DNA from: a virus
Taxonomy: Duplodnaviria; Heunggongvirae; Uroviricota; Caudoviricetes
IMG/VR virus record: IMGVR_UViG_3300020735_000006
Location: 35,950 to 99,949 of that record
DNA length: 64,000 nucleotides
Strand: one strand, 5' to 3'
Position numbers and translations under genes: made by a program. The notes beneath the pieces were generated by a model that ran no database searches, was not told the origin of the DNA, and saw nothing but the letters and a program-made list of their open reading frames with translations. Position 1 is the stretch's first letter; each line of letters opens with the position of its first letter. Below, in pieces: positions 11,847-25,006 of this stretch.

Positions 11847-12008
11847 ATGTTTGAATCACTTGAAGTCCGTAAAGCGGCAAATGGTTTTATTTTAGTAGTA
11901 ACAACAGAAGAAGACGCTAAAGAGTTTGTTTATGATACTGAACGCAAATTGCTTCGTGTTATTAAAGCACACTTAGGCGAAAAGATTACAGCACAAGACG
12001 CTGATTAA
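11847..12008 (+). CDS. Small hypothetical protein (53 aa), not in the supplied ORF track
   Basis: ATG with RBS GGAG upstream and the promoter above. Translates MFESLEVRKAANGFILVVTTEEDAKEF… to TAA at 12006-12008. Confidence 0.4.
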   Translation: MFESLEVRKAANGFILVVTTEEDAKEFVYDTERKLLRVIKAHLGEKITAQDAD

Positions 12009-12808
12009 TATAATGCAAGCCCGGCATTCAATCCTTTAAGCGTTAAGTTTAATGATTGAATACGGGTTGTATCACCTGTAAAGTTGTTCGGACTTACAGC
12101 ATCAACAATAACCTCAGTAGTTAATCCGTGACTGTCTAAAAAGTTACGTGCTAATTCACTGAGCTTATACTTCTCGGGATATGCAATATTAATATCATCC
12201 CATTCAATTCCTTGAATTACCGCATCCATAACAGTAGGAATATCCTCTAGGTTAATGTAGTCAAAATAATGATCTTGAAAAATATGTATTGGCTTTTCTG
12301 CAAGATATAGTCTACGGAAGAAGCGTACAGGTTTTTCAGTATGATGGAATACACCAAAGAATCGTAAGTTAGTAAAGTTTTTGGTAGTCTTGCAAGTACG
12401 GGCCACAATGTTCTTAGCGTATGCGTAACTAGCCATGGGCATACGATCAAACAATAGTTCTTCTGATGCACAATCGATGTTCTGCGTAGTATCAAACTCG
12501 TTACCTGTACCAGCATTAATAAACTGACCAAACTTGTGTCTATTGCGCCATATATTCATGAACATGGCAAGGTTTTGTTGTTCTTCTTCGTGGTTTATGC
12601 CGTATATATTGTCTCTACCGGCTAGGGCAGTATGTATAACAATATCAATTTTATATGTGTCGAAAAAGCGACTAACACGATCTAAATTAGTCAATTCTAA
12701 TTCACTGTGACTAGGCGCTAATACGTTATAGTCTCGAGAGTAATATTCTTTAAGGTAGCTACCTACAAAGCCGTTGCCACCTGTGATGAAGATTGTCTGT
12801 TTACTCAT
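12005..12808 (-). CDS. NAD(P)-dependent sugar epimerase/reductase (short-chain dehydrogenase family)
   Basis: N-terminal IFITGGNGFVGSYL Rossmann GxxGxxG motif. Sits in the sugar cluster. Confidence 0.6.
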   Translation of the reverse strand: MSKQTIFITGGNGFVGSYLKEYYSRDYNVLAPSHSELELTNLDRVSRFFDTYKIDIVIHTALAGRDNIYGINHEEEQQNLAMFMNIWRNRHKFGQFINAGTGNEFDTTQNIDCASEELLFDRMPMASYAYAKNIVARTCKTTKNFTNLRFFGVFHHTEKPVRFFRRLYLAEKPIHIFQDHYFDYINLEDIPTVMDAVIQGIEWDDINIAYPEKYKLSELARNFLDSHGLTTEVIVDAVSPNNFTGDTTRIQSLNLTLKGLNAGLALY

Positions 12809-13470
12809 ATGCGATTTTTAGCCATTTCTTTTGCACGTGGAATACGTACATGATCATATAAGCCGGGCCAGTGTATAATCCAATCGCCTGGTTCCCATGT
12901 ACCGCGATTACCAAACATATCTTTACTAGTATCACAATAGTCGTATACAGCAGTTTCGTAACTGTTTAATTGATTCTGTGGTACAATCTTAACTATATCT
13001 AAGTTATCTTCGATGGTGTTAATCATAACCCATTGTTCAGTCCACGGATGATCTCGATAAAATGGTTCATCCTTGTGGCTTAAAATCATTTCAAAGTATG
13101 CACGGCCTTCTGGGCTATTACGTACTAGGAAGTTTCCTGCATTTAAGTTTAACCGGTCACTAGCAATAATAAAGTGATAATCATTATCAATGCGATCTTC
13201 AATTTTAATATTACTGTTAGTAATCATTGCATCGCACTCGCTAAACAATAGCCATTCAATTTCTGGATGCTTTTTAAAAATATCTAATACTACATACATC
13301 TTATTAAAGTTCATATAAGGACTATATGGTTCTGTCTTTAATGTAAATGAATCTTCCTTGCACGGGAAGAATAAGTATCCGTGTTTATCACAATACTCTT
13401 GCTTACTTGCATCTGTTAAGTCTGCAAACTCTTTAATGTTTTCGGTGCTCATACTAGCAACTGCGTACAT
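12805..13470 (-). CDS. Hypothetical protein, possible nucleotide-diphospho-sugar transferase
   Basis: 221 aa. Overlaps neighbouring genes by 4 nt. No firm motif. Confidence 0.35.
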   Translation of the reverse strand: MYAVASMSTENIKEFADLTDASKQEYCDKHGYLFFPCKEDSFTLKTEPYSPYMNFNKMYVVLDIFKKHPEIEWLLFSECDAMITNSNIKIEDRIDNDYHFIIASDRLNLNAGNFLVRNSPEGRAYFEMILSHKDEPFYRDHPWTEQWVMINTIEDNLDIVKIVPQNQLNSYETAVYDYCDTSKDMFGNRGTWEPGDWIIHWPGLYDHVRIPRAKEMAKNRI

Positions 13471-13471
13471 A

Positions 13472-14374
13472 TTAAATAATCTTTCTAAAGTATTCTATAG
13501 TATTTTGTAGACCTTGATTGAGATCTACTTGTGGTTCCCAACCAGTTGCTTGTTTAATTAAAGATAAGTTTGGAACAGGCTGTGTAGGTTCAACTACATT
13601 AGTACCAGTAAATGTAACAGAACTTGCAGAATTTGTCAATGATACTATACGGGTAGCTAACTCTTTAATAGTAAGTGTTTCTGGGTTACCCACATCAACT
13701 GGAGTTGTAAAATCATCCTCTGTGGCCATTAACCCTATTAGGGCATCTACTGTATCTGTAGCATAGCAAAAGTTTCTATACTGTTCGCCGTTACCATTAA
13801 TTGATATAGGTTCGTTACGTAAAGCCTGTACAATAAAGTTTACAATAGCACGGCCATCATTGACTTGTAAGTTTGGCCCATAGGTATTAAACAGTCTGGC
13901 TACCTTAGTGCGTACACCGTGTTGGGCATTATAAGAATAGAATAGAGTTTCTACTGCTTGCTTGCCACCTAAATAACAATGTCTAGGATTGAATACATTC
14001 TTGTTTGGCTCAAAAGTAACCGAACCATATACTTCTGCGGTACTAGTTTGTAGTATACGAGCATTGTATCGTTTTGCCAACTCTAATAAGTTTATTGCAC
14101 CCAATATGTTACTGCGAATAGTGTCTGTAGGTTCAAGTTGATAACGTTTTGGACTTGCAGGACTTGCTAAGTTATAAATTTCGTCTACTTCTAAATCCAA
14201 TGGTTCTTGTATATTATGGGTGATGAGTTTAAGTTGTTCACTTTTGTGTACATTACTTTGACTACCTGTGGAAAAGTTATCAAGACAATATACCATATTA
14301 CCTTGCGATAATAGTTTTTGAATTAAATGACTACCTAGGAATCCAGCACCACCAGTTATTAGAATTTTTTTCAT
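13472..14374 (-). CDS. UDP-glucuronate decarboxylase (UXS)-like NAD-dependent dehydratase
   Basis: KILITGGAGFLGSHLIQKLL…VYCLDNFSTGSQSNV closely resembles the UXS / dTDP-glucose dehydratase N-terminus. Confidence 0.65.
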   Translation of the reverse strand: MKKILITGGAGFLGSHLIQKLLSQGNMVYCLDNFSTGSQSNVHKSEQLKLITHNIQEPLDLEVDEIYNLASPASPKRYQLEPTDTIRSNILGAINLLELAKRYNARILQTSTAEVYGSVTFEPNKNVFNPRHCYLGGKQAVETLFYSYNAQHGVRTKVARLFNTYGPNLQVNDGRAIVNFIVQALRNEPISINGNGEQYRNFCYATDTVDALIGLMATEDDFTTPVDVGNPETLTIKELATRIVSLTNSASSVTFTGTNVVEPTQPVPNLSLIKQATGWEPQVDLNQGLQNTIEYFRKII

Positions 14375-14423: not shown

Positions 14424-15287
14424 ATGAAAATTTATGACTGTTTCACATTCTATAACGAGCTAGACCTACTTGAACTAAGATTAACAGAATTATACGACGT
14501 TGTCGACCACTTTGTTTTAGTAGAAGCTGACACTACATATACTAGTAAACCAAAGCCATTTTATTACGAAGATAATCAAGCTCGTTACGCTAAATGGGCT
14601 GACAAGATTATCCATATTAAAGTCGAAGATATGCCACATGATCTAGATGCATGGGTCAATGATATATACCAACGCAACCAAATTGCTCGTGGCATTGCAG
14701 ACGCAGATGACAATGACTTAATTATGGTTTGTGACTTAGATGAGATTGTACGCAGAGAAGCAGTAGAGTGTATGCGTAACAGTTCACAAGACTTATTTGC
14801 TATACGTATGGCCTTGTTTAACTTTAAGTTTAATTATATGCGTACAGCACCAGATCCATATCAAATTTGGGGCATGGCCGGACGTCGGCATTTGTTTAAT
14901 GATATCCAGCCCGATCCATTTAGACAACTACGTTTTCAGTTTATGGCAGCACCGTATAAGTTTAGTAACGACGGTTGCGAAGTTATCGAACACGGTGGCT
15001 GGCATTTTGGTTACATGGGCGATAATGAGTGGTTAAAGAATAAAGCTCAAAGTTTTGCACACACAGAAAGCGATACTCCAGAGTTCTTAGCACACATTGA
15101 CATTGATAAGTCCATAGCCGAACGTAAAGAGTGGAACCGTGCTAGTCCAAATGAGTATAAGATTGTCGAAATCAATGATTATTTCCCTCGGTCCTTGTTA
15201 GCTAACTTGGACAAGTATCAAAAGAACATACTTGACAATGCCGAAGCAAACATATATAATCTATTACCACCGTATCCATATCAATGA
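14424..15287 (+). CDS. Glycosyltransferase, GT17-like
   Basis: N-terminus MKIYDCFTFYNELDLLELRL is characteristic of bacterial GT17-family proteins. Confidence 0.45.
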   Translation: MKIYDCFTFYNELDLLELRLTELYDVVDHFVLVEADTTYTSKPKPFYYEDNQARYAKWADKIIHIKVEDMPHDLDAWVNDIYQRNQIARGIADADDNDLIMVCDLDEIVRREAVECMRNSSQDLFAIRMALFNFKFNYMRTAPDPYQIWGMAGRRHLFNDIQPDPFRQLRFQFMAAPYKFSNDGCEVIEHGGWHFGYMGDNEWLKNKAQSFAHTESDTPEFLAHIDIDKSIAERKEWNRASPNEYKIVEINDYFPRSLLANLDKYQKNILDNAEANIYNLLPPYPYQ

Positions 15288-16006
15288 ACATAATTATTCC
15301 AATGGCAGGGCGAGGTAGTCGCTTTGCTGAAAAACAAATCCTGACGCCCAAGCCATTACTTGATGTAAACGGACGTACTATGATTGAACGTGCCATTGAA
15401 AGTTTAGATTTGTATGGTACTTGGCACTTTGTTATACGTGATGATGAACATCGTGAACGTGTACAAGCAATGATTGAAACAATCAAACCTGGTAGTAAGT
15501 TTATTGCAATTGATTATGTTACCGAAGGTCCTGCTAGTAGCGGATTGTTATTTAAAGATCAGATTAATAACGATGAAGAACTTGTTATTGCTAACTGTGA
15601 TCAAATCATGGAATGGACTAGCAGTAGATTCCTGGACTATGTCCGCCACTATGATGGTGCAGTAGTTACATACCATGCACATACAGATAAAAACAGTTAT
15701 GCTCGAGTAAACAAAGAAGGCCTTGTACAAGAAATCCGTGAGAAGCAAGTAATAAGCAACATCAGTCTTAACGGTATTCACTATTGGCGAGAAGGCCGCA
15801 TGTTTGTTGATAGTGCAGAAGCAATGATAGCCACCAATGATCGTGCACCTAATGGAGAGTTCTACATTGGACCTAGTTATAATCATATGATCGCAACAGG
15901 ATTAACTGTGGGCATTTACCACATACCTAACCAGTTTCATCATCCAGTTGGTGTTCCCGACGACTTAGACAAATTTATAAGATATGAAAACAGCAAAACT
16001 TTCTGA
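15284..16006 (+). CDS. Sugar-phosphate nucleotidyltransferase
   Basis: IIPMAGRGSRF matches the G-x-G-[ST]-R signature of the NTP_transferase family. 4-nt overlap with the upstream gene. Confidence 0.7.
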   Translation: MNIIIPMAGRGSRFAEKQILTPKPLLDVNGRTMIERAIESLDLYGTWHFVIRDDEHRERVQAMIETIKPGSKFIAIDYVTEGPASSGLLFKDQINNDEELVIANCDQIMEWTSSRFLDYVRHYDGAVVTYHAHTDKNSYARVNKEGLVQEIREKQVISNISLNGIHYWREGRMFVDSAEAMIATNDRAPNGEFYIGPSYNHMIATGLTVGIYHIPNQFHHPVGVPDDLDKFIRYENSKTF

Positions 16007-16310
16007 CATGACACGTGGATGGTTCATCGGCGACTTTGAACCTAGTGTAATGCGTACTCCTTTGTTTGAAGTGGGCGTACTTACACACTTAAAGGGCGAA
16101 GTTTGGCCCGCACACTATCACAAACATGCTACAGAATACAATGTATTATTATCAGGAAGTATGCGTATTGCCGGAGAAGTTATTAGCGTAGGCGATATCT
16201 TTTGGTTTGAGCCCGAGGATGTTGCTGATCCAGAATTTTTAGAAGATTGTAAAGTCTTGTGCGTTAAACGCCCGAGTATAATTGGAGACAAGTATGAAGT
16301 TTTACCGTAA
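15984..16310 (+). CDS. Cupin-domain protein (possible NDP-sugar isomerase/epimerase)
   Basis: HYHKHATEYNVLLSG fits cupin motif 1, G(x)5HxH(x)3-4E(x)6G. Confidence 0.5.
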   Translation: MKTAKLSDMTRGWFIGDFEPSVMRTPLFEVGVLTHLKGEVWPAHYHKHATEYNVLLSGSMRIAGEVISVGDIFWFEPEDVADPEFLEDCKVLCVKRPSIIGDKYEVLP

Positions 16311-17487
16311 CCGTAGTGAAATAGATCCGAACAAATATCTTGTTGCTACTTATGCAATGACGAGTAGCACAAGTCTTGACGATGCTGCTTGGAACTTAGC
16401 TATCGGACAAAGTGTAGGTAATCCTAATGTACGCAACGAGTGGGAAACAGATGAACTGTTTGAAAATCACAGTTGTATTATACTTGCAGACAAAGCAGAG
16501 TTAGCACAAACAAAAGCAGGTACAGTTGAAATTGCGTTCCCTGTGGCAAACACAGATTGGGAATCAGATGGTATTAATCATTTAATTTGTCAGTTAATGG
16601 GTGGACATGTAGACATTGATTGTGTAACAGGATGTAGACTAATTAAACTAGAACTTCCGGAAACTGTAACTAAGCACTTCCTAGGTCCTAAGTTCGGTCT
16701 TACAGGAATTCGAGAATTTACAGGTCAATACAACAAGCCCCTGTTTGGTAGCATTGTTAAACCTAAAATTGGCATTACACCAGAAGTAATGTTAGAGATG
16801 GTTAAACAAATGGTTGACGGTGGTGCCGACTTTATCAAAGAAGATGAGATTATGTCAAACCCTGCGTGTGCTCCATTAGAACGCAGAGTAGAATTAGTTG
16901 CCAACTACCTAGCTAAACAAAGCCGTAAGGTTGTGTTTTGCCATACTATTAACTGTGATCCACATGTATTAGTTGAACGTGTTAAGCGTGTAGCAGAACT
17001 AGGTGGTAATGGAGTACATACAAACGTATTTTCAGGATTAGGTACTTACAACTCTATTCGTAAATTAGACTTGCCACTGTTCTTACACTTCCAGAAGTCT
17101 GGCGACAAACTAATGACTGATGCCAAACATCGTTTTAGTATTGCTTGGCCTGTTGTATGCCAACTTGCTACCTTAATGGGTGTTGACACAATCCAAACAG
17201 GTATGATGGGCGGATATAGTAATGACGATCCTGCAGAGTTAGCAGAAAGCATTAAGGTGTTACGTGAAGGTAATACATTGCCTGTATTAAGCTGTGGATT
17301 CCATCCTGGACTGGTAGAAAAGATTACAGCATTAGCTGGCAATGATTATATGGCCAATGTAGGCGGAGCAGTACACGGGCATCCAGGCGGTACAGTTGCA
17401 GGTGCACGTGCTATGCGTCAAGCAATTGACAAGACTTATGGTCCAGAATATGATGAAGCAATCGCAAAATGGGGATTAGTAAAATGA
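16282..17487 (+). CDS. RuBisCO large-subunit-like protein (form IV RLP)
   Basis: VKPKIGIT aligns with KPKLGLS. GGADFIKEDE aligns with GGLDFTKDDE. LPVLSCGFH…GGAVHGHPGG aligns with LPVASGGIH…GGGTLGHPWG. The HIHRA motif is replaced by HFQKS. Confidence 0.75.
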   Translation: METSMKFYRNRSEIDPNKYLVATYAMTSSTSLDDAAWNLAIGQSVGNPNVRNEWETDELFENHSCIILADKAELAQTKAGTVEIAFPVANTDWESDGINHLICQLMGGHVDIDCVTGCRLIKLELPETVTKHFLGPKFGLTGIREFTGQYNKPLFGSIVKPKIGITPEVMLEMVKQMVDGGADFIKEDEIMSNPACAPLERRVELVANYLAKQSRKVVFCHTINCDPHVLVERVKRVAELGGNGVHTNVFSGLGTYNSIRKLDLPLFLHFQKSGDKLMTDAKHRFSIAWPVVCQLATLMGVDTIQTGMMGGYSNDDPAELAESIKVLREGNTLPVLSCGFHPGLVEKITALAGNDYMANVGGAVHGHPGGTVAGARAMRQAIDKTYGPEYDEAIAKWGLVK

Positions 17488-18766: not shown

Positions 18767-19230
18767 TATACATAGCACACAGGGGGTTGTTTAATGGCCC
18801 AGACGATGGAATAGAAAATGACCCAGAGCAGATTAAGTTTGCTCTTAGTAAAGGATATGATTGCGAAGTAGACGTATGGTACAAAGCCGAAGACGAGTGG
18901 TTTCTAGGGCACGATGAACCTACGTATAATGTTAGCTACGATTTTATTGCACAAGGCGGATTATGGTTACATGCTAAGAATTTAGCCGCCTTGTATTACT
19001 TAACTGGCACGCCGCTTAATTACTTTTGGCACGAATCAGATTCACGTACATTAACAAGTCATCAATATATCTGGACCTATCCTGGGCACAAGTTGTCTAA
19101 GCATAGCATTATGGTTATGCCAGAAACAGTTGATCCCGAATTACTATCAACTAACGATGCTAACTGTTATGGAATATGTAGTGATTATATTGAAAAAATC
19201 ATTGACATACGGTCCGGCAAAGTTTTATAA
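18691..19230 (+). CDS. Glycerophosphodiester phosphodiesterase (GDPD)-like protein
   Basis: HRGLFNG…ENDPEQIKFALSKGYDCEVDVW…LGHDEP follows the HR-x-ENT-x-E-x-D-x-HD pattern of GDPD enzymes. Confidence 0.45.
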   Translation: MLAVYSRTTVEQRRIPRTLENGPSMIYIAHRGLFNGPDDGIENDPEQIKFALSKGYDCEVDVWYKAEDEWFLGHDEPTYNVSYDFIAQGGLWLHAKNLAALYYLTGTPLNYFWHESDSRTLTSHQYIWTYPGHKLSKHSIMVMPETVDPELLSTNDANCYGICSDYIEKIIDIRSGKVL

Positions 19231-19283
19231 TAAGCAATATCATAGTAAAATAAATACTAGCATCAATTAATAATGGAAGAAAC

Positions 19284-20324
19284 ATGTCAAAAAATGTACT
19301 AATAACAGGTGGTGCTGGATTTATCGCGCATCACGTCATCGATAAAATGCTTAAAGAAACAGACTACAATATTGTATGTTTAGATCGTTTAGACATTAGT
19401 GGTAACTTAAATCGTTTATATGATATGCTACAGGATCACGACCCTAAGATGGTTGCAGAGCGTATGCGTATTGTGTTCCACGATCTTAAAGCAGAATTAA
19501 ATGAAATGATTATCAAGGACATTGGCCCCATTGATATTATTTTACACTTAGCCGCAGGTAGTCACGTAGATCGCAGTATTGAATATCCACTGGAGTTCCT
19601 ACAAGATAACGTAGTGGGCACAGTTAACATGCTCGACTATGCACGTAAGCATTTGCCTAATTTGGAACGTTTTGTTTACTTCTCCACAGATGAAATCTTT
19701 GGTGTTGCTCCCCCAGGCGTAAGTTACAAAGAATATGATCGTTACAACTCAACTAATCCATATTCTGCTAGTAAAGCCGCAGGCGAAGAGTTCTGTGTTG
19801 CGTATGAAAACACTTACAAAATGCCTATTATTGTCACCCATACAATGAACGTATTTGGCGAACGTCAACATCCAGAGAAGTTTATTCCTATGTGTATTCA
19901 ACGTGCTCGTGATGGTGAGAAAGTATATATTCACGCTAACGCAGATTGTACAGAAGCAGGTACACGTATGTATATCCACGCACGTGATGTAGCAGATGGC
20001 TTGATGTTTATTCTAAATACATTACCTGCAGACTACAAACACACAGGCGATTATGGTTGGGCACATTGTCCTAAGTTTAACTTAGTAGGCACAGAAGAAG
20101 TTGATAACTTAACTTTAGCTAAAATGATTGCTGCTGCCCAGGGTAAAGAGTTAAATTACGAAATGGTTGACTTCCATGGATCACGTCCGGGGCATGATTT
20201 ACGTTATGCACTAGATGGTAGCCTGCTTAAAGAGCTAGGGTGGGAGCCGAAGATTAAACTTAGTGAACGTATTAAAGATATGACATTGTGGACATTAGAC
20301 AACAAACGTTGGTTGAGCAAATAA
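19284..20324 (+). CDS. dTDP-glucose 4,6-dehydratase-like NAD-dependent dehydratase
   Basis: VLITGGAGFIAHHV…IVCLDRLDISGN. Catalytic YSASKAAGE (YxxxK). Confidence 0.7.
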   Translation: MSKNVLITGGAGFIAHHVIDKMLKETDYNIVCLDRLDISGNLNRLYDMLQDHDPKMVAERMRIVFHDLKAELNEMIIKDIGPIDIILHLAAGSHVDRSIEYPLEFLQDNVVGTVNMLDYARKHLPNLERFVYFSTDEIFGVAPPGVSYKEYDRYNSTNPYSASKAAGEEFCVAYENTYKMPIIVTHTMNVFGERQHPEKFIPMCIQRARDGEKVYIHANADCTEAGTRMYIHARDVADGLMFILNTLPADYKHTGDYGWAHCPKFNLVGTEEVDNLTLAKMIAAAQGKELNYEMVDFHGSRPGHDLRYALDGSLLKELGWEPKIKLSERIKDMTLWTLDNKRWLSK

Positions 20325-20325
20325 T

Positions 20326-21042
20326 ATGACTAGACATGCATTTATCGTTACCTCTGCTATTAATAGTAAGTTTGGTGTGTTTACCCCAACACAACGATTA
20401 CAACAAACAATTGAAACTATTACTAGCATTAAAGCTAAAGTTCCTGATGCAATTATTGTTGTTATGGAATGTTGTGGCGAACCGATTAAAAAACTACAAG
20501 AAGATATTCTACGTGCCCATTGTCACGTATTTGTAGACTACAGTCGGGATGCCGAGGTACAAGCATTGTACGACAATGATAACTGGGACGTTGTAAAAAA
20601 TGGAACAGAGATTATGTGCTTTGGTCGTGCGTTAGCAGTATTGGCACACGAAGGATTGTTTACAAATGTTGATCGTATACATAAAATGTCTGGACGTTAT
20701 ATCCTAAATGATATGTTTGATCCTGCTACATACGATCAAACAGATGTCATTGATAAGATTGTTATTGGCCCTAAGTGTACAAGCCAATTCCCTCCAGAAG
20801 TAACACAAGTACCATTCCAGTATATGGCTCGTTTGTGGTCATGGCCAACTAGTCGAGTAGACGAAGTAGTTAAGGTATACAGCGATTCGTTTATTTTCTT
20901 TGCTGAACGTTTAAGCCAAGGCGGATATGTGGATATTGAGCATGTATTAGCTAAGTTCTTAAATCCAGCAGTAGTACATGAAATTCAAAATCTTGGTGTC
21001 GAAGGACAAATTGCACCTAACGGAACCCCAATTAAAAACTAA
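20326..21042 (+). CDS. Hypothetical protein
   Basis: 238-aa ORF, translationally coupled within the operon. Confidence 0.45.
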   Translation: MTRHAFIVTSAINSKFGVFTPTQRLQQTIETITSIKAKVPDAIIVVMECCGEPIKKLQEDILRAHCHVFVDYSRDAEVQALYDNDNWDVVKNGTEIMCFGRALAVLAHEGLFTNVDRIHKMSGRYILNDMFDPATYDQTDVIDKIVIGPKCTSQFPPEVTQVPFQYMARLWSWPTSRVDEVVKVYSDSFIFFAERLSQGGYVDIEHVLAKFLNPAVVHEIQNLGVEGQIAPNGTPIKN

Positions 21043-22265
21043 TGGAAGATTGCAAACAAATCACTGAATGTCTTGCCTGTGGCGGTCACGATCTGGTATT
21101 AACTTTAGATCTTAAAGATCAGCCATTGGCAAATAATTTTCAAAAGCATGGTGGAGTTAAAGATACCGACTTGTGGTTCCCTTTAGCTATTAACCGTTGT
21201 ACTAATTGTAATCACTTACAACTAACACACGCAGTTAATCCAGAAATTATTTATACACATTATCTTTATGTAAGTGGCACTAGCCAGACTAACAGAGATT
21301 TTATGAAATGGTTTGCAGGATTTGCCAAAGAACAGTTCGATCGTCCTGTGCTTAGTGTATTAGATATCGGGTGTAATGATGGTACACAATTAAACTTCTT
21401 AAAAGAACAACAATTTTTAACATACGGTGTAGATCCAGCAGAAAACTTATACCCTATTAGCAGTAAAGATCATAATATTGTTTGTGGATTCTGGGATGCG
21501 GAAAGTGCCAGTGGCCTAGGGCGTGACTTTGATGCAATCATAGCACAAAACAGTTTTGCACATAATCCTGATCCATTGCCATGGTTAAAGTTAGCCAAAG
21601 CATACTTAAAGAATGATGGAAAGATCTTTATTCAAACAAGTCAAGCAGATATGATTGTTAATGGTGAATTTGATACAATCTATCATGAGCACATTAGTTT
21701 CTACAATGCGTACAGTATGAAGTTGCTTGCCGAACGTGCCGGATTATATTTAATTGATGTTGTTAAACCCACTATCCACGGTACTAGTTATATCTTTATC
21801 TTAGCTAAACAACCAGCTAACGAATATCGTGTGGCAAATATTCTTGCGGTAGAGGAAGCTCTCGGATTACAGAACCCCGAAACTTACACTAAGTGGGCTG
21901 CAGGCGTTCGGGATCTAATTACAAAACTTAAAGATCAACTCGAATTATATCGCCATAATGGGTATGCTATTGTTGGGTATGGCGCTGCTGCTAAAGGAAT
22001 GACCTTACTTAATGCAAGTGATATTCACTTAGACGCAGTTGTAGATGACAATCCGTTAAAACAAGGATTGTTCTGCCCGGGCACAGCTATTCCCGTAGTC
22101 AGCCCAGATTATATTAAAGGTTTCACAGACCGAGACAGCATTGTATTTGTTCCGCTTGCTTGGAATTTTTACGATGAGATTGTAAAAAATATTCGCAAGG
22201 TACGTGATAACAAAAACGATATGTTTATTAAGTATTTTCCTGAAATAACACACGAATTTTTTTAA
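21042..22265 (+). CDS. NDP-hexose C-methyltransferase (TylCIII-like)
   Basis: N-terminal zinc-ribbon CLACGG…CTNCNHLQL followed by a class I methyltransferase core (VLDIGCNDG). Architecture typical of sugar C-3 methyltransferases. Confidence 0.6.
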   Translation: MEDCKQITECLACGGHDLVLTLDLKDQPLANNFQKHGGVKDTDLWFPLAINRCTNCNHLQLTHAVNPEIIYTHYLYVSGTSQTNRDFMKWFAGFAKEQFDRPVLSVLDIGCNDGTQLNFLKEQQFLTYGVDPAENLYPISSKDHNIVCGFWDAESASGLGRDFDAIIAQNSFAHNPDPLPWLKLAKAYLKNDGKIFIQTSQADMIVNGEFDTIYHEHISFYNAYSMKLLAERAGLYLIDVVKPTIHGTSYIFILAKQPANEYRVANILAVEEALGLQNPETYTKWAAGVRDLITKLKDQLELYRHNGYAIVGYGAAAKGMTLLNASDIHLDAVVDDNPLKQGLFCPGTAIPVVSPDYIKGFTDRDSIVFVPLAWNFYDEIVKNIRKVRDNKNDMFIKYFPEITHEFF

Positions 22266-22633
22266 TGAGTACCTTCCATTTTCCTATAATTGAATTAGTT
22301 GACAGATACACTATTGCTCGTGTAAAATACGAAAAGACCAATGGTGCTAATAGTGCTGAATTATCCTTTTATCAACTTGAAATCAATAAACTCGATATTA
22401 ATTTAATTAAAGATGATCTGCTGGCACTAGAAGATATACATCGCCGTATTTGGGCAATGGAAGATGATTTTAAAAAGTGTCGAATTGATGGTGCACCACT
22501 TAGCGATATCGGGCAACGTGCTTTAGACATACGAGATTTAAACAATCATAGAGTAGCATACAAAAATTCTATAGCAGAGAAGTTAAATGATCCTGTTAGA
22601 GAAATTAAACAAGACCACACAAGTGAAAATTGA
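22265..22633 (+). CDS. Hypothetical protein
   Basis: 122-aa ORF, operon-coupled. Confidence 0.45.
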   Translation: MSTFHFPIIELVDRYTIARVKYEKTNGANSAELSFYQLEINKLDINLIKDDLLALEDIHRRIWAMEDDFKKCRIDGAPLSDIGQRALDIRDLNNHRVAYKNSIAEKLNDPVREIKQDHTSEN

Positions 22634-23516
22634 AACACCCGTAACCATACTAGTTAAACGCAGAGCCGCCCTGGGCGATGTAGTAATGAGTACCGCAGTT
22701 GTGCGAGAGTTGTACAAGAAGTACGACGGTAAATGCTCTATTACTGTAGAAACAGAATTCCCACTTATATATAAAAACAATCCTTACATTGTTGATTTAC
22801 GCAATTGGGGAGAAGTTAATACTAGTGACTTTGATGTTGTTGTTAACTTAGATGACGCATACGAATTAAATCCAGATAATCATTTTATTGATAGTATGCT
22901 ATTCCGTGCATTTGGTGATAGCATAGGACGGTTAAATCGTGCGCCAGATTTACACGCAGACGATGCCGACAAAAGTATCGTAGACGCAGACATAAAAGAT
23001 ATAGGCCCATTCTTTGCGGTTCATATGCGTAACTGGCATTGGGCATTAAAGAATATCGGTATTGAAATTTGGTGTGATATTTTTGCTAAGGTGTTTGAAC
23101 AGAACGCAGATACTAAAGTTATGGTAATTGGTGGCCCAACAGATTATACGTTAGATCATCCATTGTTTATTGATGCACGTGCTAAGTACACACCACAACA
23201 GTTAGCATACTTGCTCAATTCTGCAGAATGTTTTGTTGGTATAGATTCTGGACCATTTAACATTGCTGCCGCAAGCGATACACATATTATTGGATTGTTA
23301 ACACACAACCCACCTAAAAATATCATGCCCATCCGTAAGTTTGATGCAGGATGGCATACTACAGCAATACAAGCTGACATTGATTGTGTTGGCTGTAACG
23401 TAAATCAAGCTCGTCCCGTAAGAGGAATTAATTGTATACACGGTGATTTCCGTTGTAACAAGTTATGGGACACACAAAAAATTGCCAACGCTATATTAAC
23501 ACAAATAGGAAAATAA
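22587..23516 (+). CDS. Glycosyltransferase family 9 (heptosyltransferase-like)
   Basis: ILVKRRAALGDVVMSTAVVREL matches the GT9 N-terminal motif ILVIRxxxLGDVVxxTPxxRAL. The start may lie downstream; the track ORF overlaps the previous gene by 47 nt. Confidence 0.55.
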   Translation: MILLEKLNKTTQVKIETPVTILVKRRAALGDVVMSTAVVRELYKKYDGKCSITVETEFPLIYKNNPYIVDLRNWGEVNTSDFDVVVNLDDAYELNPDNHFIDSMLFRAFGDSIGRLNRAPDLHADDADKSIVDADIKDIGPFFAVHMRNWHWALKNIGIEIWCDIFAKVFEQNADTKVMVIGGPTDYTLDHPLFIDARAKYTPQQLAYLLNSAECFVGIDSGPFNIAAASDTHIIGLLTHNPPKNIMPIRKFDAGWHTTAIQADIDCVGCNVNQARPVRGINCIHGDFRCNKLWDTQKIANAILTQIGK

Positions 23517-24245
23517 ATGCCAAACATTGTAATTACAGATCAAGTATATCAAGACCATCCGCAAGTTCAAGTTGTTAAAGATTGTTTTGAATTAGCTCAA
23601 CAAGGTATTAGTGCGATTCCGCCTTATGCCTTAACAATCCCCGGAATGAGTGGAATTGTATACCGTAGATTTATTAACAACTATGTACGCACTCTAATAG
23701 CGCCAAAGTACTTAGAAGTTGGTGTATGGACAGGTAGTACATTGTGTGCGGCTATCGGCGGCATTGATAATGTACGTGCAGTGGCCGTAGATAACTATTC
23801 AGAAAGCTATCCGCACTACTCTACAAGTCCAGAAGCAGACTGCCGCCATAATGTGGCTACTGTTAAGATTGACACAGCCAATCTTGAGTTATTATTAAAT
23901 CAAGCATTTGAAACATTTGAACCTGCTCCATATGGTCCATTTAACGTTTACATGTATGATGGTTACCACGATGAAGAAAGTCAATTCCAAGGCATTGACA
24001 AAGTTGCTCCTTGCTTAGAAGAGATTAGTTTAATTGTAGTTGATGATTGGAACGATAACGAATACTTCCCAACTGAATACAAAGGTGTTACATATGGTAG
24101 CCGCGAAAAAGCTGGAACATATCGTGCATTTGATCAAGTTGGTCTAGAGCTACTATACAAGATTGAAGTTGAAACAGGTGAAAACCCAATGTTCCCAAGT
24201 GATTGGCACAACGGATACGGAATCTTCTTAGTTAAAAAGATCTAA
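23517..24245 (+). CDS. Putative class I methyltransferase (O-methyltransferase family 3-like)
   Basis: YLEVGVWTGS motif-I-like and VYMYDGYHDEES (FIDxDH-like) blocks. Confidence 0.4.
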   Translation: MPNIVITDQVYQDHPQVQVVKDCFELAQQGISAIPPYALTIPGMSGIVYRRFINNYVRTLIAPKYLEVGVWTGSTLCAAIGGIDNVRAVAVDNYSESYPHYSTSPEADCRHNVATVKIDTANLELLLNQAFETFEPAPYGPFNVYMYDGYHDEESQFQGIDKVAPCLEEISLIVVDDWNDNEYFPTEYKGVTYGSREKAGTYRAFDQVGLELLYKIEVETGENPMFPSDWHNGYGIFLVKKI

Positions 24246-25006
24246 TGACAACATTTTTACATTCTGGAACTGCCGGTGATACTGTATATAGTTTAGCCGC
24301 AGTTAAAAAAATGGGTGGTGGCGAGTTTCAGATTGGTATTCGCAACCTAGAGCGTATTTTACCTACATACGGCTATCGTGCAGAGGATTGTGATCCAGCA
24401 CACCGAGGTCGTTACACAGAACGAGACTACGAGCTATTAGCACCATTGATTGAGCGTCAAACGTATATAACTAAGGTTACTCCTTGGCACGATGGTGATA
24501 ATAGGCCGGATGTAAACTTAGATCAATATCGTGCAGTACTGTATCGTACATTCGAAGGCAATATTGTTGAAAGCTATTTTAAAACATTCAACTTACCTTT
24601 TATGATGCAAGATTACGATACACCTTGGTTAGAAGCAGACGCAATTACTGAAGCCGCTATTATTGTAAACTCAACACCACGCTATAGAGATCCAGAAGCA
24701 TTTGGTACTTGGTTACAAATGTGTGCAGATGCCGAACTAGACAAAAATGGATTGTTTGTGGGCACTATTGCAGAATACGATGCGTTTGTTACCGCTACTA
24801 AATGTAATATTAAATATCGCCCGGTTAAGGACTTTTTGGAACTAGCCGGACTTATCGAAGGTGCAGACTTATTTTTGGGTAATCAAAGTATGGCACTTAG
24901 TATTGCTATGGGTTTGGGCAAAGCTAGTGTAGTTGAATTGCATAAAATCAAACCGATGCAGTATAGAGAATGTTTCTTCCCTAGAACTAACATTACCTAT
25001 TTCTAA
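24245..25006 (+). CDS. Putative GT9-like glycosyltransferase
   Basis: C-terminal LAGLIEGADLFLGNQSMALSIAMGLGK resembles the GT9 C-terminal GNDSGPMHLAAALG region. Confidence 0.4.
   Translation: MTTFLHSGTAGDTVYSLAAVKKMGGGEFQIGIRNLERILPTYGYRAEDCDPAHRGRYTERDYELLAPLIERQTYITKVTPWHDGDNRPDVNLDQYRAVLYRTFEGNIVESYFKTFNLPFMMQDYDTPWLEADAITEAAIIVNSTPRYRDPEAFGTWLQMCADAELDKNGLFVGTIAEYDAFVTATKCNIKYRPVKDFLELAGLIEGADLFLGNQSMALSIAMGLGKASVVELHKIKPMQYRECFFPRTNITYF

What the first reader, a model, noticed from the sequence alone, without database searches (positions are those of the whole stretch)
12005..25006. 13-kb phage-borne glycan biosynthesis/modification island
The contiguous block encodes at least three NDP-sugar dehydratases/epimerases (UXS-like, RfbB-like and a short SDR). 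It also encodes a sugar nucleotidyltransferase, a cupin, a TylCIII-like NDP-hexose C-methyltransferase and two Methyltransf_24-like O-methyltransferases. Further members are GT17-like, two GT9-like and other putative glycosyltransferases, a GDPD-like esterase and the RLP. Most genes overlap by 1-4 nt, indicating operons. The content predicts synthesis of a branched, methylated deoxy-sugar or pentose and its transfer to an acceptor. The acceptor (DNA, virion protein or host LPS) cannot be read from the sequence. This is far larger than the one- or two-gene glucosyltransferase systems of T4.
Basis: partly seen in the sequence, partly recalled or inferred. Interest (0 to 1): 0.75.

Follow-up and report, generated by a model that had tools for sequence, protein, structure and literature searches.

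The report
Jumbo-phage sugar island with RuBisCO-like core
A 13-kb block of a roughly 300-kb uncultured jumbo phage really does encode a cytoplasmic sugar-building and sugar-transferring factory. Its conserved heart is a RuBisCO-like enzyme coupled to a sugar-nucleotide synthase, which gives the first testable function for the RuBisCO-like proteins known in phages since 2018.

Summary
Window 12005-25006 is filled by 18 tightly packed genes. All but three (20326-21042, 22265-22633, 24245-25006) match a sugar-nucleotide enzyme, methyltransferase or glycosyltransferase family by profile, solved-structure or fold search.

The DNA is phage. It carries T4-type replication genes closest to jumbo phages, the identical island lies on contigs up to 296 kb and in three independent samples, and its composition matches the rest of the window.

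The island has three modules:
- a UDP-xylose module on the minus strand;
- a cassette of nucleotidyltransferase, cupin, RuBisCO-like protein (RLP), O-methyltransferase, GT-A transferase and GDPD-like protein;
- a module of 4,6-dehydratase, 3-C-methyltransferase, GT9 and O-methyltransferase.

The last two each sit behind one of the only two perfect sigma-70 promoters in the 64 kb.

The new point is the RLP cassette. RLP and the nucleotidyltransferase are adjacent in 46 of 50 related viral contigs and 8 of 9 genome bins, always among varying glycan enzymes. The parts occur fused elsewhere as RLP-NT, GDPD-RLP and NT-cupin. The RLP keeps the Mg/carbamate enolisation site but lacks carboxylase residues.

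The likely role is making an unusual activated sugar. The sugar and the acceptor remain unknown. Large phage glycan clusters are already known, so this is a new variant of a known kind.

The parts
12005..12808 (-). Short SDR (267 aa), RmlD / GDP-fucose-synthase-like reductase or epimerase. Candidate 4-ketoreductase for the C-methyl sugar, or a UDP-pentose epimerase.
   Evidence: Pfam Epimerase 1.5e-16 and RmlD_sub_bind 5.9e-9. Motifs GGNGFVG and YAYAK. 74% identical in the syntenic locus L001.
12805..13470 (-). GT34-like glycosyltransferase (221 aa).
   Evidence: Pfam Glyco_transf_34 2.3e-20, 73.8 bits against cut-off 23. 85% identical in L001, 40% in L041.
13472..14374 (-). UDP-glucuronate decarboxylase (UXS), which makes UDP-xylose.
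   Evidence: PDB human UXS1 (4gll, 2b69) E 7e-82 over the full length. Motifs GGAGFLG, STAEVYG and YLGGK.
14424..15287 (+). GT17-like glycosyltransferase (287 aa).
   Evidence: Pfam Glyco_transf_17 9.5e-28, 97.7 bits against cut-off 26. Found in 4 related loci.
15232..15260 (+). Perfect sigma-70 consensus promoter (TTGACA-N17-TATAAT), 24 nt upstream of the nucleotidyltransferase start.
   Evidence: One of only 2 perfect matches in 64 kb; 0.07 expected; 0 of 100 shuffles reach 2. A perfect site also precedes the NT gene in L005 and L044.
15284..16006 (+). Sugar-phosphate nucleotidyltransferase (NT, 240 aa). Invariant partner of the RLP.
   Evidence: Pfam NTP_transf_3 1.1e-10. Motif PMAGxGxRF...PKPL. 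Family profile against PDB: 4evw 5.6e-33, then HddC, RmlA and GMPP. Next to the RLP in 46 of 50 viral loci. Fused to the RLP in the P0349 cluster.
15984..16310 (+). Small metal cupin (108 aa), probable sugar(-phosphate) isomerase.
   Evidence: Conserved H35, H44, H46 and E51. AF2 pLDDT 95. Top fold matches are Thermococcus phosphomannose isomerases and D-lyxose isomerase. Present in 34 of 50 loci. Fused to the NT in L074.
16294..17487 (+). RuBisCO-like protein (397 aa) of the phage 'form IV-like' clade. An enolising enzyme, not a carboxylase.
   Evidence: Pfam RuBisCO_large 3.6e-36. No NCBIfam equivalog reaches its cut-off. Alignment to 1geh: K175, K177, K201, D203, E204, S379, G381, G403 and G404 kept; E60, N123, H294, R295, H327 and K334 replaced. 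100% identical protein P0001 lies on contigs up to 296 kb.
17484..18077 (+). Methyltransf_24-type SAM methyltransferase (197 aa).
   Evidence: Pfam 1.2e-6, 29.8 bits against cut-off 26.3. Present in 30 of 50 loci. Replaced by a different methyltransferase in L001.
18074..18766 (+). DUF7796 protein (230 aa) with a GT-A glycosyltransferase fold. Candidate transferase for the cassette's sugar.
   Evidence: Homologues carry PF25072. AF2 pLDDT 93.7. Foldseek top hits are GT6 retaining glycosyltransferases, E about 1e-5, TM about 0.5. hhalign links it to the c44 (99%) and c9 (87%) families that flank the RLP elsewhere.
18763..19230 (+). Half-length GDPD-like phosphodiesterase domain (155 aa).
   Evidence: Invariant HR, EN, ExD, GHD, WxHxK and FxH motifs. 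Family profile against PDB GDPD 7e0v 4e-4. Present in 39 of 50 loci. Fused N-terminally to the RLP in P0378 and P0512.
19202..19231 (+). Second perfect sigma-70 consensus promoter (TTGACA-N18-TATAAT), 53 nt upstream of the dehydratase gene.
19284..20324 (+). NDP-hexose 4,6-dehydratase (RmlB-like, 346 aa).
   Evidence: PDB dTDP-glucose 4,6-dehydratases 7e-50. TIGR01181 scores 230.8 bits, below the equivalog cut-off of 365. Motifs STDE and YSASK. 92% identical in L001.
20326..21042 (+). Conserved protein of unknown function (238 aa).
   Evidence: No Pfam or NCBIfam hit. 75% identical in L001. A 28%-identical homologue sits next to the RLP cassette in L074.
21042..22265 (+). NDP-hexose 3-C-methyltransferase (TylC3 / TcaB9 type, 407 aa).
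   Evidence: Pfam Methyltransf_13, _23 and _14 all above their cut-offs. PDB 4rv9 1.3e-55 and TcaB9 8e-42.
22265..22633 (+). Small ORF (122 aa), function unknown.
   Evidence: Only a sub-threshold DUF6165 match, 17 bits against cut-off 27. Absent from L001. It is a called gene in three independent assemblies.
22587..23516 (+). GT9-like (heptosyltransferase-type, GT-B) glycosyltransferase (309 aa).
   Evidence: Pfam Glyco_transf_9 8.5e-7, 29 bits against cut-off 22, C-terminal part only. Weak NCBIfam heptosyltransferase hits.
23517..24245 (+). Second Methyltransf_24-type methyltransferase (242 aa).
   Evidence: Pfam 2.3e-6, 28.9 bits against cut-off 26.3.
24245..25006 (+). 253-aa protein, possibly GT9-like. 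Unproven.
   Evidence: No Pfam hit at E<=1. No significant BLAST match to the GT9 gene. Only motif resemblance by eye (GTAGD near the N-terminus, GADLFLGNQS near the C-terminus). Homologues at about 31% identity in 5 RLP loci.

Best explanation
The block is a phage-encoded, entirely cytoplasmic glycan factory. It lies in a roughly 300-kb T4-related jumbo phage whose host is probably a betaproteobacterium of the order Burkholderiales. It has three modules.

**Module A (12005-14374, minus strand).**
- UXS turns host UDP-glucuronate into UDP-xylose.
- A GT34-like enzyme transfers a sugar.
- A short SDR reduces or epimerises a sugar nucleotide.

**Module B (15284-19230, behind a perfect sigma-70 promoter).** This is a conserved, mobile cassette.
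- The RuBisCO-like protein uses its retained carbamyl-lysine/Mg site to enolise and isomerise a phosphorylated keto-sugar taken from central or nucleotide-derived metabolism.
- The small metal cupin carries out an adjoining sugar(-phosphate) isomerisation.
- The nucleotidyltransferase condenses the resulting sugar phosphate with an NTP to give an unusual activated sugar.
- A Methyltransf_24 enzyme O-methylates it.
- The DUF7796 GT-A protein transfers it.
- The GDPD-like half-domain handles a phosphodiester step next to the RLP.

**Module C (19284-25006, behind the second perfect sigma-70 promoter).**
- An RmlB-type 4,6-dehydratase makes an NDP-4-keto-6-deoxyhexose.
- The TylC3-type enzyme methylates C3.
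- The short SDR of module A probably reduces C4.
- GT9-like enzymes transfer the sugar, and a second Methyltransf_24 enzyme methylates it.

**Acceptor.** No island protein has a membrane segment, and there is no flippase, polymerase or priming transferase. The acceptor must therefore be reachable from the cytoplasm. I slightly favour virion proteins (about 0.4) over the host lipid A-core or envelope glycan (about 0.35), with DNA at about 0.1.

**Shown versus inferred.**
- Shown: gene families, phage origin, modular structure, conservation and fusions of the cassette, and RLP active-site content.
- Inferred: the substrates, the order of steps in module B, the pairing of the short SDR with module C, and the acceptor.
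For: **Families:**

**Phage origin**
- Helicase 51-55% identical to jumbo phages.
- PHROG replication and virion families in the window.
- The identical RLP is on contigs up to 296 kb, and the same island is in 3 independent samples.
- Island GC of 0.34-0.41 equals that of the rest of the window.
- L001 is collinear from the short SDR to GroEL at 52-92% amino-acid identity.
- In relatives L032-L038 and L047 the cassette directly follows homologues of T4 gp13, gp14 and gp15.

**Modules:** the only two perfect sigma-70 promoters in 64 kb sit before 15284 and 19284.

**Cassette**
- NT and RLP are adjacent in 46 of 50 viral loci; the cupin is present in 34, the GDPD-like gene in 39 and the methyltransferase in 30.
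- NT and RLP are adjacent in 8 of 9 GTDB loci, including a Beckwithbacteria polysaccharide cluster.
- Flanking genes vary but are always glycan enzymes: FkbM methyltransferase, GT2, GT4, GT25, GT61, WavE and radical SAM.

**Fusions**
- RLP-NT, in a cluster of 128 members from several sources.
- GDPD-RLP, and NT-cupin on the same contig.

**RLP residues:**

**Cupin:** nearest folds are phosphomannose and D-lyxose isomerases.

**NT:** it belongs to the sugar-1-phosphate family. Its cyanophage homologues are fused to a beta-phosphoglucomutase-like HAD domain, that is, to an enzyme that supplies a sugar 1-phosphate.

**No membrane segments:**
Against: - No substrate, product or acceptor has been observed; everything chemical is inferred from family membership.
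- The GDPD-like assignment rests on about 50 N-terminal residues.
- The RmlB-like enzyme is below the NCBIfam equivalog cut-off, so the nucleotide and the hexose are unknown.
- Four loci have only NT-cupin-RLP with no transferase nearby.
- In the Verrucomicrobiae chromosome the trio sits beside a fatty-acid desaturase rather than glycan genes, so a non-glycan use of the product is possible.
- Perfect sigma-70 promoters suggest early, host-polymerase transcription, which fits virion decoration less well than host remodelling.
Confidence: 0.72

Rival explanations
1. Host-envelope remodelling. The island's transferases act on the host lipid A-core or another envelope glycan at the inner face of the membrane. 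This changes the infected cell's surface to block superinfection or the re-adsorption of progeny, as was proposed for the 'LPS' clusters of cyanomyovirus P-SSM2.
For: - GT9 in the window, and GT25 and WavE in relatives, are LPS-core-type families.
- No exporter is needed if the host flips the modified core, and no membrane proteins are encoded.
- Perfect sigma-70 promoters imply early transcription by host RNA polymerase.
- The island lies next to host-like outer-membrane genes: a porin at 9972-11141 and a Bordetella-type OmpA at 11202-11750, the latter above its NCBIfam cut-off.
- The hypothesis has precedent in PMC1079782.
Against: - The same cassette occurs in a contig with eukaryote-type topoisomerase IB and TFIIS (a probable giant virus) and in Beckwithbacteria (candidate phyla radiation). 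By my own knowledge of these groups, not tested here, neither setting involves LPS. The sugar is therefore not LPS-specific.
- GT17, GT34 and GT61 are mostly eukaryote-type families.
- In some relatives the cassette is embedded in the virion neck and tail gene block.
Confidence: 0.35
2. DNA hypermodification. The activated sugars are attached to hydroxymethylated bases in the phage DNA to evade restriction, as in T4 and other phages with DNA glycosyltransferases.
For: - Phage glycosyltransferases often target DNA (literature cited in PMC12619734).
- The acceptor would be cytoplasmic, which fits the absence of membrane proteins.
- The window carries nucleotide-metabolism genes, namely a dCMP deaminase and RNR.
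Against: - The families found are GT9, GT17, GT34 and a DUF7796 fold nearest GT6. None was matched to a T4-type DNA glucosyltransferase.
- No pyrimidine hydroxymethylase turned up in the parts of the window that were searched. Only 64 of about 296 kb is available, and not every ORF was scanned.
- The cassette also lies in bacterial polysaccharide clusters.
- Three O-/C-methyltransferases and at least five transferases would be unusually elaborate for a DNA modification.
Confidence: 0.1
3. The RLP is unrelated to the glycan genes. It salvages S-adenosylmethionine by-products (methylthioribulose- or 5-deoxyribulose-phosphate chemistry, as in the Rhodospirillum rubrum RLP plus cupin shunt) for a genome rich in SAM-dependent enzymes.
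For: - By recollection, not tested here, an RLP next to a small cupin is the arrangement of the R. rubrum MTA-isoprenoid shunt.
- The island has four SAM methyltransferases, and two radical-SAM genes lie at 2219-4504.
- The NT shows weak IspD similarity (E 4e-4).
Against: - The NT has the PKPL-type sugar-1-phosphate signature and its best solved relatives are NDP-sugar pyrophosphorylases, not IspD.
- No mtnA, mtnP, mtnK or dxr homologue was recognised in the 50 neighbourhoods that were clustered, of which only the commoner gene families were profiled.
- The RLP is fused to the NT and to the GDPD-like domain.
- Methyltransferases produce S-adenosylhomocysteine, not methylthioadenosine.
Confidence: 0.07
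4. The segment is bacterial DNA (a chromosomal polysaccharide locus or a mis-binned or chimeric contig) rather than phage.
For: - The window carries several host-like genes: two TctC, a porin, OmpA and GroES/GroEL.
- Some RLP loci are in bacterial bins.
Against: - Replication genes in the same window are closest to jumbo phages.
- There is no compositional break.
- The same junctions are seen in three independent assemblies and in the syntenic L001.
- Fifty IMG/VR contigs up to 327 kb carry the core.
- T4-like neck and tail genes abut the cassette in relatives.
Confidence: 0.03

Closest known systems
'LPS' / glycan gene clusters of lytic T4-like cyanomyoviruses (P-SSM2, 24 genes in two clusters, PMC1079782; islands in S-CAM9 and S-PRM1)
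   Same: - Contiguous sets of nucleotide-sugar epimerases or dehydratases, nucleotidyltransferases and several glycosyltransferases in large lytic myovirus genomes, with no known acceptor.
- The window's NT has 35-38% identical homologues inside those islands.
   Different: - The cyanophage NT is fused to a HAD (beta-phosphoglucomutase-like) domain, and there is no RLP.
- The window adds an RLP-cupin-GDPD cassette, a 3-C-methyltransferase and UXS.
Phage 'form IV-like' RuBisCO-like proteins reported by Jaffe et al. (bioRxiv 10.1101/386292, also PMC6389311)
   Same: Same kind of protein: divergent RLPs on large myovirus-type phage contigs that group with Beckwithbacteria sequences. My loci include a Beckwithbacteria MAG.
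   Different: - That work left the function open. Its text does not mention glycosyl, nucleotidyl or cupin neighbours.
- Here the RLP is tied to a nucleotidyltransferase, a cupin and a GDPD-like domain by synteny and by fusions.
Bifunctional type II phosphomannose isomerase / GDP-mannose pyrophosphorylase (AlgA / ManC type; from my own knowledge)
   Same: - A nucleotidyltransferase is coupled to a cupin sugar-phosphate isomerase. An NT-cupin fusion of the phage type exists in L074.
- The cupin's best fold matches are phosphomannose isomerases.
   Different: - The cupin does not hit the Pfam MannoseP_isomer model.
- An RLP, not a phosphomannomutase, is the third conserved partner.
- The sugar is unknown.
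Characterised RLPs: DK-MTP-1-P enolase (MtnW), R. rubrum methylthioribulose-1-P isomerase, 3-oxo-isoapionate-4-P decarboxylase (OiaX)
   Same: Same fold, retained K175/K201/D203/E204 enolisation machinery, and loss of carboxylase residues.
   Different: - Scores of 132-162 bits are far below each equivalog cut-off of 409-700.
- The residue pattern at the second phosphate site differs.
- The genomic partners are biosynthetic (NT, glycosyltransferases) rather than catabolic or salvage genes.
Virus-encoded virion glycosylation machineries of giant viruses and mycobacteriophages (from my own knowledge; Freeman et al. 2023 and Pyle et al. 2024 as cited in PMC12619734)
   Same: - Soluble cytoplasmic glycosyltransferases together with complete nucleotide-sugar pathways, and sets that vary between related viruses.
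- The RLP cassette also occurs on a contig with eukaryote-type Topo IB and TFIIS.
   Different: No virion glycan has been shown for this phage lineage, and none of those systems is known to use an RLP.

Membership tests
Phage-borne glycan ('LPS-type') biosynthesis cluster | Located in a phage genome, not in host DNA | tested here: met
Phage-borne glycan ('LPS-type') biosynthesis cluster | Contiguous nucleotide-sugar-modifying enzymes together with several glycosyltransferases | tested here: met
   Three SDRs, an NT, a C-methyltransferase, two O-methyltransferases, GT34, GT17, GT9 and a DUF7796 GT-A fold.
Phage-borne glycan ('LPS-type') biosynthesis cluster | A glycan product on a defined acceptor | not testable with these tools
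   Needs glycan analysis of virions, infected-cell LPS and phage DNA.
Bona fide RuBisCO (forms I-III) | Full catalytic set E60, N123, K175, K177, K201, D203, E204, H294, R295, H327, K334 | tested here: not met
   Alignment to T. kodakarensis RuBisCO 1geh: E60, N123, H294 (to Q), R295 (to K), H327 (to Q) and K334 are replaced. rubisco_III scores 177.6 bits against cut-off 497.
RuBisCO-like protein (form IV sensu lato) | RuBisCO large-subunit fold with the carbamyl-lysine/Mg triad kept and carboxylase residues lost | tested here: met
   Pfam RuBisCO_large 125 bits against cut-off 30. K201, D203 and E204 are invariant in 35 family members.
Known RLP equivalogs (MtnW enolase, OiaX decarboxylase) | Score above the NCBIfam equivalog cut-off | tested here: not met
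   162 bits against 409, 132 against 514, and 157 against 700.
R. rubrum-type MTA-isoprenoid shunt (RLP plus cupin methylsulfurylase) | RLP and cupin accompanied by methylthioribose-handling and DXP-pathway genes | tested here: not met
   No such genes were recognised in the 50 clustered neighbourhoods. The conserved partner is a sugar-1-P-type NT. Cupin identity with the R. rubrum enzyme was not tested because no reference sequence was at hand.
UDP-glucuronate decarboxylase (UXS) | Extended SDR with GxxGxxG, the S/T-x-E and YxxxK motifs, and full-length similarity to solved UXS | tested here: met
   E 7e-82 to human UXS1 over residues 2-298. Motifs. Activity not testable.
dTDP-glucose 4,6-dehydratase (RmlB) | Equivalog-level score, and the TDE / YxxxK dehydratase motifs | tested here: inconclusive
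   Motifs are present and PDB RmlB matches at 7e-50. TIGR01181 scores 230.8 bits, below 365.1. It is a 4,6-dehydratase of uncertain nucleotide specificity.
NDP-hexose 3-C-methyltransferase (TylC3 / TcaB9 / KijD1) | Zn-binding Methyltransf_13, a SAM methyltransferase domain, and the Methyltransf_14 C-terminal domain | tested here: met
   All three are above the Pfam cut-offs. PDB 4rv9 1.3e-55.
GT9 (heptosyltransferase-type) | Pfam Glyco_transf_9 above the gathering score | tested here: met
   22587-23516 scores 29 bits against 22, but only profile positions 175-222 of 247 are matched.
GT9 (heptosyltransferase-type), second copy claimed at 24245-25006 | Pfam Glyco_transf_9 match, or similarity to the first copy | tested here: not met
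   No Pfam hit at E<=1. BLAST E 0.42. Only motif resemblance by eye.
Glycerophosphodiester phosphodiesterase (GDPD) | Full TIM-barrel GDPD domain with the catalytic His and metal ligands | tested here: inconclusive
   The N-terminal motifs HR, EN, ExD and HD are invariant and match solved GDPD 7e0v at E 4e-4. The protein is only about 150 aa, and Pfam finds nothing.
T4-type DNA glucosyltransferase system | An alpha- or beta-glucosyltransferase homologue together with a pyrimidine hydroxymethylase | tested here: not met
   Island proteins match other families. No hydroxymethylase was seen in the searched ORFs. Only part of the genome is available.

The most novel reading that the evidence does not exclude
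The nucleotidyltransferase, cupin, RuBisCO-like protein and GDPD-like domain together form a previously unrecognised route to an activated sugar.
- The RuBisCO-like enzyme supplies the step that a phosphomutase supplies in classical pathways. For example, a 1,3-isomerisation could convert a ketopentose 5-phosphate into a ketose 1-phosphate.
- The cupin would then isomerise that product to an aldose 1-phosphate for the nucleotidyltransferase.
- The cassette has spread among jumbo phages, candidate-phyla-radiation bacteria and probably giant viruses, to decorate virions or cell surfaces with a novel sugar.

This would be the first biosynthetic, glycan-directed function for any member of the RuBisCO superfamily.
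Probability: 0.35. Interest if true: 0.85.

Novelty: new variant of a known kind. Interest (0 to 1): 0.66.

Why it matters
[quoted passage not shown] This locus and its relatives give a concrete hypothesis: four small soluble proteins, with natural fusions that say which ones work together, make an activated sugar. If true, it widens the known chemistry of the RuBisCO superfamily from carbon fixation, salvage and catabolism to glycan biosynthesis.
- **The family is abundant.** A search for the RLP found 2,612 proteins at E<=1e-10, and a search for the cupin found 6,697 at E<=0.001. The sugar it makes is therefore probably a common, unrecognised component of viral or microbial surfaces in natural waters.
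- **It adds to a broader pattern.** Large lytic phages, like giant viruses, appear to carry complete and rapidly varying glycosylation machineries. The targets of these machineries remain unknown.

Tried and rejected
- Megablast of the 13 kb, and tblastn of the RLP, against 50,697 deposited phage records found nothing. The lineage and the RLP are absent from deposited and cultured phages.
- Pfam at E<=1 and NCBIfam gave nothing usable for 20326-21042, 24245-25006 and the GDPD-like protein.
- Local hhalign did not link the DUF7796 family to the WavE, GT2 or GT25 families.
I rebuilt the alignment from database hits.
- The afdb50 fold library was unavailable.
- One structure job was lost and re-run.
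- The N-terminal 327 aa of the singleton fusion P0385 gave no solved-structure match. I do not count it as a GT-RLP fusion.
- The MTA-isoprenoid-shunt reading of RLP plus cupin plus an 'IspD-like' NT was considered and rejected. The NT is of the sugar-1-phosphate type, no salvage or DXP genes were recognised nearby, and the RLP is fused to the NT and to GDPD.
- The 'moraphage' jumbo-phage paper (PMC12619734) was checked as a possible description of this lineage. It is not: those phages are predicted to infect Bacteroidota, and the paper does not mention RuBisCO.
- An Rfam scan found only the two tRNAs.
- Promoter-like and terminator-like sites as a whole are no more frequent than in shuffled sequence. 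Only the two perfect promoters stand out.
- Literature searches linking RLPs with nucleotidyltransferases, cupins, nucleotide sugars, polysaccharide synthesis or giant viruses returned nothing relevant.

Full report
**1. What is in the window**

The 64-kb window has a uniform, low G+C content (0.33-0.41) and is coded almost entirely on the plus strand.

Between 12005 and 25006 there are 18 closely packed genes. Gene calls made independently on three other assemblies of the same sequence fix the true starts of four genes:
- the RuBisCO-like protein at 16294;
- the first Methyltransf_24 gene at 17484;
- the next gene at 18074;
- the GDPD-like gene at 18763.

**2. The enzyme families hold up**

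*Module A, minus strand*
- 13472-14374 is a UDP-glucuronate decarboxylase. It matches human UXS1 at E 7e-82 over its full length and has the expected motifs.
- 12805-13470 is GT34-like (73.8 bits).
- 12005-12808 is a short SDR of the RmlD / GDP-fucose-synthase type.

*Plus strand, in order*

| Coordinates | Assignment | Evidence |
|---|---|---|
| 14424-15287 | GT17-like | 97.7 bits |
| 15284-16006 | nucleotidyltransferase | |
| 15984-16310 | cupin | |
| 16294-17487 | RuBisCO-like protein | |
| 17484-18077 | Methyltransf_24 | |
| 18074-18766 | DUF7796, GT-A fold | |
| 18763-19230 | GDPD-like half-domain | |
| 19284-20324 | RmlB-type 4,6-dehydratase | PDB 7e-50, STDE and YSASK motifs; below the NCBIfam equivalog cut-off |
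| 20326-21042 | unknown | |
| 21042-22265 | TylC3 / TcaB9-type 3-C-methyltransferase | three domains above the Pfam cut-offs; PDB 4rv9 1.3e-55 |
| 22265-22633 | unknown, 122 aa | |
| 22587-23516 | GT9-like | 29 bits against cut-off 22 |
| 23517-24245 | second Methyltransf_24 | |
| 24245-25006 | unknown, 253 aa | |

Neither Pfam nor BLAST supports it.

The protein at 18074-18766 gave a confident model (pLDDT 93.7). Its best solved neighbours are GT6-family retaining glycosyltransferases, so it is one more putative transferase.

**3. It is phage DNA**

- The same window carries a UvsW-type helicase that is 51-55% identical to those of the jumbo phages Phosso, Atu_ph07 and PA5oct.
- It also carries DnaB, a primase, a clamp-loader-like protein, class I ribonucleotide reductase and a virion-protein family.
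- A protein 100% identical to the RLP lies on contigs up to 296 kb. The island, with the same neighbours, was assembled from three unrelated samples.
- Fifty IMG/VR viral contigs, one of them 327 kb long, carry an RLP that is 60-81% identical.
- One of these, L001, is collinear with the window from the short SDR to GroEL at 52-92% protein identity.
- In another subgroup the cassette directly follows homologues of the T4 neck and tail genes gp13, gp14 and gp15.
- Island G+C matches the rest of the window.
- Neither the island DNA nor the RLP has any match in 50,697 deposited phage records, so the lineage is known only from metagenomes.
- Host-like genes nearby point to a Burkholderiales host. 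These are two TctC/Bug receptors, a Porin_4 porin and an OmpA that passes the Bordetella-type equivalog cut-off. This host assignment is an inference.

**4. The island is modular**

The only two perfect sigma-70 consensus promoters in the 64 kb (0.07 expected by chance) both lie inside the island on the plus strand. One is 24 nt before the nucleotidyltransferase gene and the other is 53 nt before the dehydratase gene.

Comparison with the 50 viral loci shows which genes travel with the RLP:

| Gene | Loci of 50 |
|---|---|
| nucleotidyltransferase | 46 |
| GDPD-like gene | 39 |
| cupin | 34 |
| Methyltransf_24 gene | 30 |
| DUF7796-type gene | 17 |

By hhalign, the DUF7796 superfamily is present in more loci than that count shows.

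UXS, the dehydratase, the C-methyltransferase, GT17, GT34 and GT9 recur in only a few loci.

The genes that flank the cassette differ from phage to phage but are always glycan enzymes: FkbM methyltransferases, GT2, GT4, GT25, GT61, WavE and radical-SAM enzymes.

The same association holds outside the viral collection:
- In nine GTDB genome loci, RLP and NT are adjacent in eight.
- In a Beckwithbacteria bin the four-gene cassette lies inside a GT2 / GT4 / methyltransferase polysaccharide cluster.
- In a closed Verrucomicrobiae chromosome the RLP-NT-cupin trio stands beside a desaturase and near a transposase.

**5. Natural fusions tie the cassette together**

A search of 1.8 billion representative proteins, checked by BLAST and by cluster look-up, found three fusions:
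- A 667-671-aa RLP-NT fusion. Its cluster has 128 members from Tara Oceans, MGnify, JGI and ENA. A cupin, a second NT, WavE and other glycan genes follow it.
- A 546-aa GDPD-RLP fusion on four contigs.
- Immediately downstream of that fusion on the same contig, a 415-aa NT-cupin fusion.

All four proteins are thus pairwise fused somewhere. This is strong evidence that they act in one pathway.

That last contig also encodes a eukaryote-type topoisomerase IB, a TFIIS zinc ribbon and a papain-like peptidase. It is probably a giant virus. I did not verify this.

**6. What the RLP can and cannot do**

Aligned to the Thermococcus kodakarensis enzyme, the phage protein keeps:
- K175 and K177;
- the carbamylated K201 with D203 and E204 (sequence GGADFIKEDE);
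- the first phosphate site (S379, G381, G403, G404).

It has lost E60, N123, H294 (now Q), R295 (now K), H327 (now Q) and K334.

These kept positions are invariant in 35 family members. No characterised RLP equivalog comes near its cut-off.

From established knowledge of the superfamily, this pattern means a Mg-dependent enolisation or isomerisation of a phosphorylated keto-sugar. It rules out carboxylation. The altered second phosphate site suggests a monophosphate substrate.

**7. The partners**

- **Nucleotidyltransferase.** It has the PMAGxGxRF...PKPL signature. Its best solved relatives are NDP-sugar pyrophosphorylases (4evw at 5.6e-33, then HddC, RmlA and GMPP). Its only homologues in cultured phages are in cyanomyovirus glycan islands, where it is fused to a beta-phosphoglucomutase-like HAD domain. 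There, its partner is an enzyme that supplies a sugar 1-phosphate.
- **Cupin.** It has a conserved His/His/His/Glu site. Its best fold matches, by two methods, are small phosphomannose isomerases and a D-lyxose isomerase, though the margin over other metal cupins is small.
- **A known parallel.** An NT joined to a cupin isomerase is the architecture of bifunctional PMI / GDP-mannose pyrophosphorylases (my own knowledge). In that pathway the missing middle step is a phosphomutase.

I therefore propose that the RLP, helped by the cupin and the GDPD-like domain, makes the sugar phosphate that the NT activates.

One chemically coherent version is:
1. ketopentose 5-phosphate to ketose 1-phosphate (RLP, the reverse sense of the R. 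rubrum RLP reaction);
2. ketose 1-phosphate to aldose 1-phosphate (cupin, the step that MtnA or ribose-1,5-bisphosphate isomerase performs next to RuBisCO-family enzymes);
3. aldose 1-phosphate to NDP-pentose (NT).

This version is inference only.

**8. The other two modules follow textbook logic**

- UXS needs host UDP-glucuronate and gives UDP-xylose.
- The dehydratase gives an NDP-4-keto-6-deoxyhexose. The TylC3-type enzyme methylates C3 of such 4-keto intermediates, and a ketoreductase is then needed. The short SDR is the only candidate in the island.
- The nucleotide carrier and the stereochemistry cannot be read from sequence.

**9. Acceptor**

No island protein has a hydrophobic segment (maximum Kyte-Doolittle mean over 19 residues is below 1.6). 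There is no flippase, polymerase, priming phosphoglycosyltransferase or ABC exporter. Assembly must therefore happen on something reachable from the cytoplasm.

- *For host lipid A-core or envelope:* the LPS-core-type families (GT9, GT25, WavE), the sigma-70 promoters and the adjacent porin and OmpA genes.
- *For virion proteins:* the eukaryote-type families (GT17, GT34, GT61), the cassette's position beside neck and tail genes in some relatives, its presence in a probable giant virus, and the rapid turnover of transferases between relatives.
- *DNA* cannot be excluded but has no positive support.

I put these at roughly 0.35, 0.4 and 0.1.

**10. Comparison with what is known**

- Large glycan clusters in lytic myoviruses have been known since P-SSM2 (24 genes; PMC1079782). 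They are visible in S-CAM9 and S-PRM1. An island of this size is therefore not new in kind.
- Phage RLPs were reported by Jaffe et al. as a divergent 'IV-like' clade of unknown function that groups with Beckwithbacteria. Their text does not mention nucleotidyltransferase, cupin or glycosyl neighbours.
- I found no paper in the searchable library that links an RLP to nucleotide-sugar or polysaccharide synthesis. The library is incomplete, so this is not proof of absence.

**11. Verdict**

As a glycan island it is a new member of a known kind. The RLP-centred cassette, with its fusions and wide distribution, makes it a new variant. It turns the open question of what phage RuBisCO-like proteins do into a direct biochemical experiment.

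Interest 0.66.

Noticed in passing
window 15232-15260 and 19202-19231: These are the only two perfect sigma-70 consensus promoters in the 64-kb window (0.07 expected). Both are on the plus strand, inside the island, and directly upstream of module starts. Perfect sites are also common in related loci (25 of 71), including one upstream of the NT gene in L005 and L044.
   Followed up: partly
window 9972-11141 and 11202-11750: The phage carries a Gram-negative porin (Porin_4, 6e-38) and an OmpA that passes the NCBIfam Bordetella-type OmpA equivalog cut-off (265 bits against 200). A strong bidirectional terminator follows at 11758-11782. These are host-like outer-membrane genes immediately upstream of the glycan island.
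   Followed up: partly
window 195-1139 and 5611-6498(-): There are two TctC/Bug-family periplasmic solute receptors. By my own knowledge this family is greatly expanded in Burkholderiales, which suggests the host lineage.
   Followed up: no
window 25101-25397 and 25409-27031: Phage-encoded GroES (Cpn10, 7.7e-32) and GroEL (Cpn60, 1.3e-73) lie directly downstream of the island. They are conserved at 85-86% identity in the syntenic contig L001.
   Followed up: partly
window 2219-3316 and 3323-4504: Two adjacent radical-SAM proteins lie upstream of the island. Their function is unknown.
   Followed up: no
window 8691-8783 and 9059-9132; about 8397-8627; 9435-9866: The window has tRNA-Ser(ACT) and tRNA-Thr(TGT) (ARAGORN and Rfam), a small RNA-polymerase omega (Rpb6)-like gene, and a dCMP deaminase.
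   Followed up: no
L074 (JGI 3300041086, contig Ga0452216_002933, 62.8 kb), 5804-14085: The RLP cassette appears here as two fusion proteins, GDPD-RLP (8001-9641) and NT-cupin (9678-10925). It is flanked by an RmlD-like SDR, Methyltransf_24, a TylF methyltransferase and a homologue of window gene 20326-21042. The same contig encodes eukaryote-type topoisomerase IB, a TFIIS zinc ribbon, WLM and a papain-like peptidase, so it is probably a giant virus.
   Followed up: partly
L072 (ENA ERZ27247690, k141_777211), 2707-5381 and 8001-12363: The RLP-NT fusion gene lies next to a phosphonate-biosynthesis set (PEP mutase, split phosphonopyruvate decarboxylase, Fe-alcohol dehydrogenase, NTP_transf_3), sulfatase-family proteins and a CMP-sugar synthase-SDR fusion. 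This suggests a phosphonate-decorated glycan locus.
   Followed up: no
L070 5341-6726 (Synechococcus phage S-CAM9 gp067) and L071 (S-PRM1 gp096): The cyanophage homologue of the island's NT is a 461-aa fusion of a HAD_2 (beta-phosphoglucomutase-like) domain with the NT. It is annotated only as a pyrophosphorylase or as hypothetical. It sits in a roughly 10-kb island with an epimerase, four glycosyltransferases, a second HAD protein and a sulfotransferase-like protein.
   Followed up: partly
P0382 and P0396: These are 726-742-aa fusions of an eIF2B-like (ribose-1,5-bisphosphate isomerase-type) domain with a RuBisCO that carries form III-type motifs. They belong to a different clade from the phage RLP and match the fusions described by Jaffe et al. 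P0417 is an RLP with an N-terminal domain that looks TIR-like by eye.
   Followed up: no
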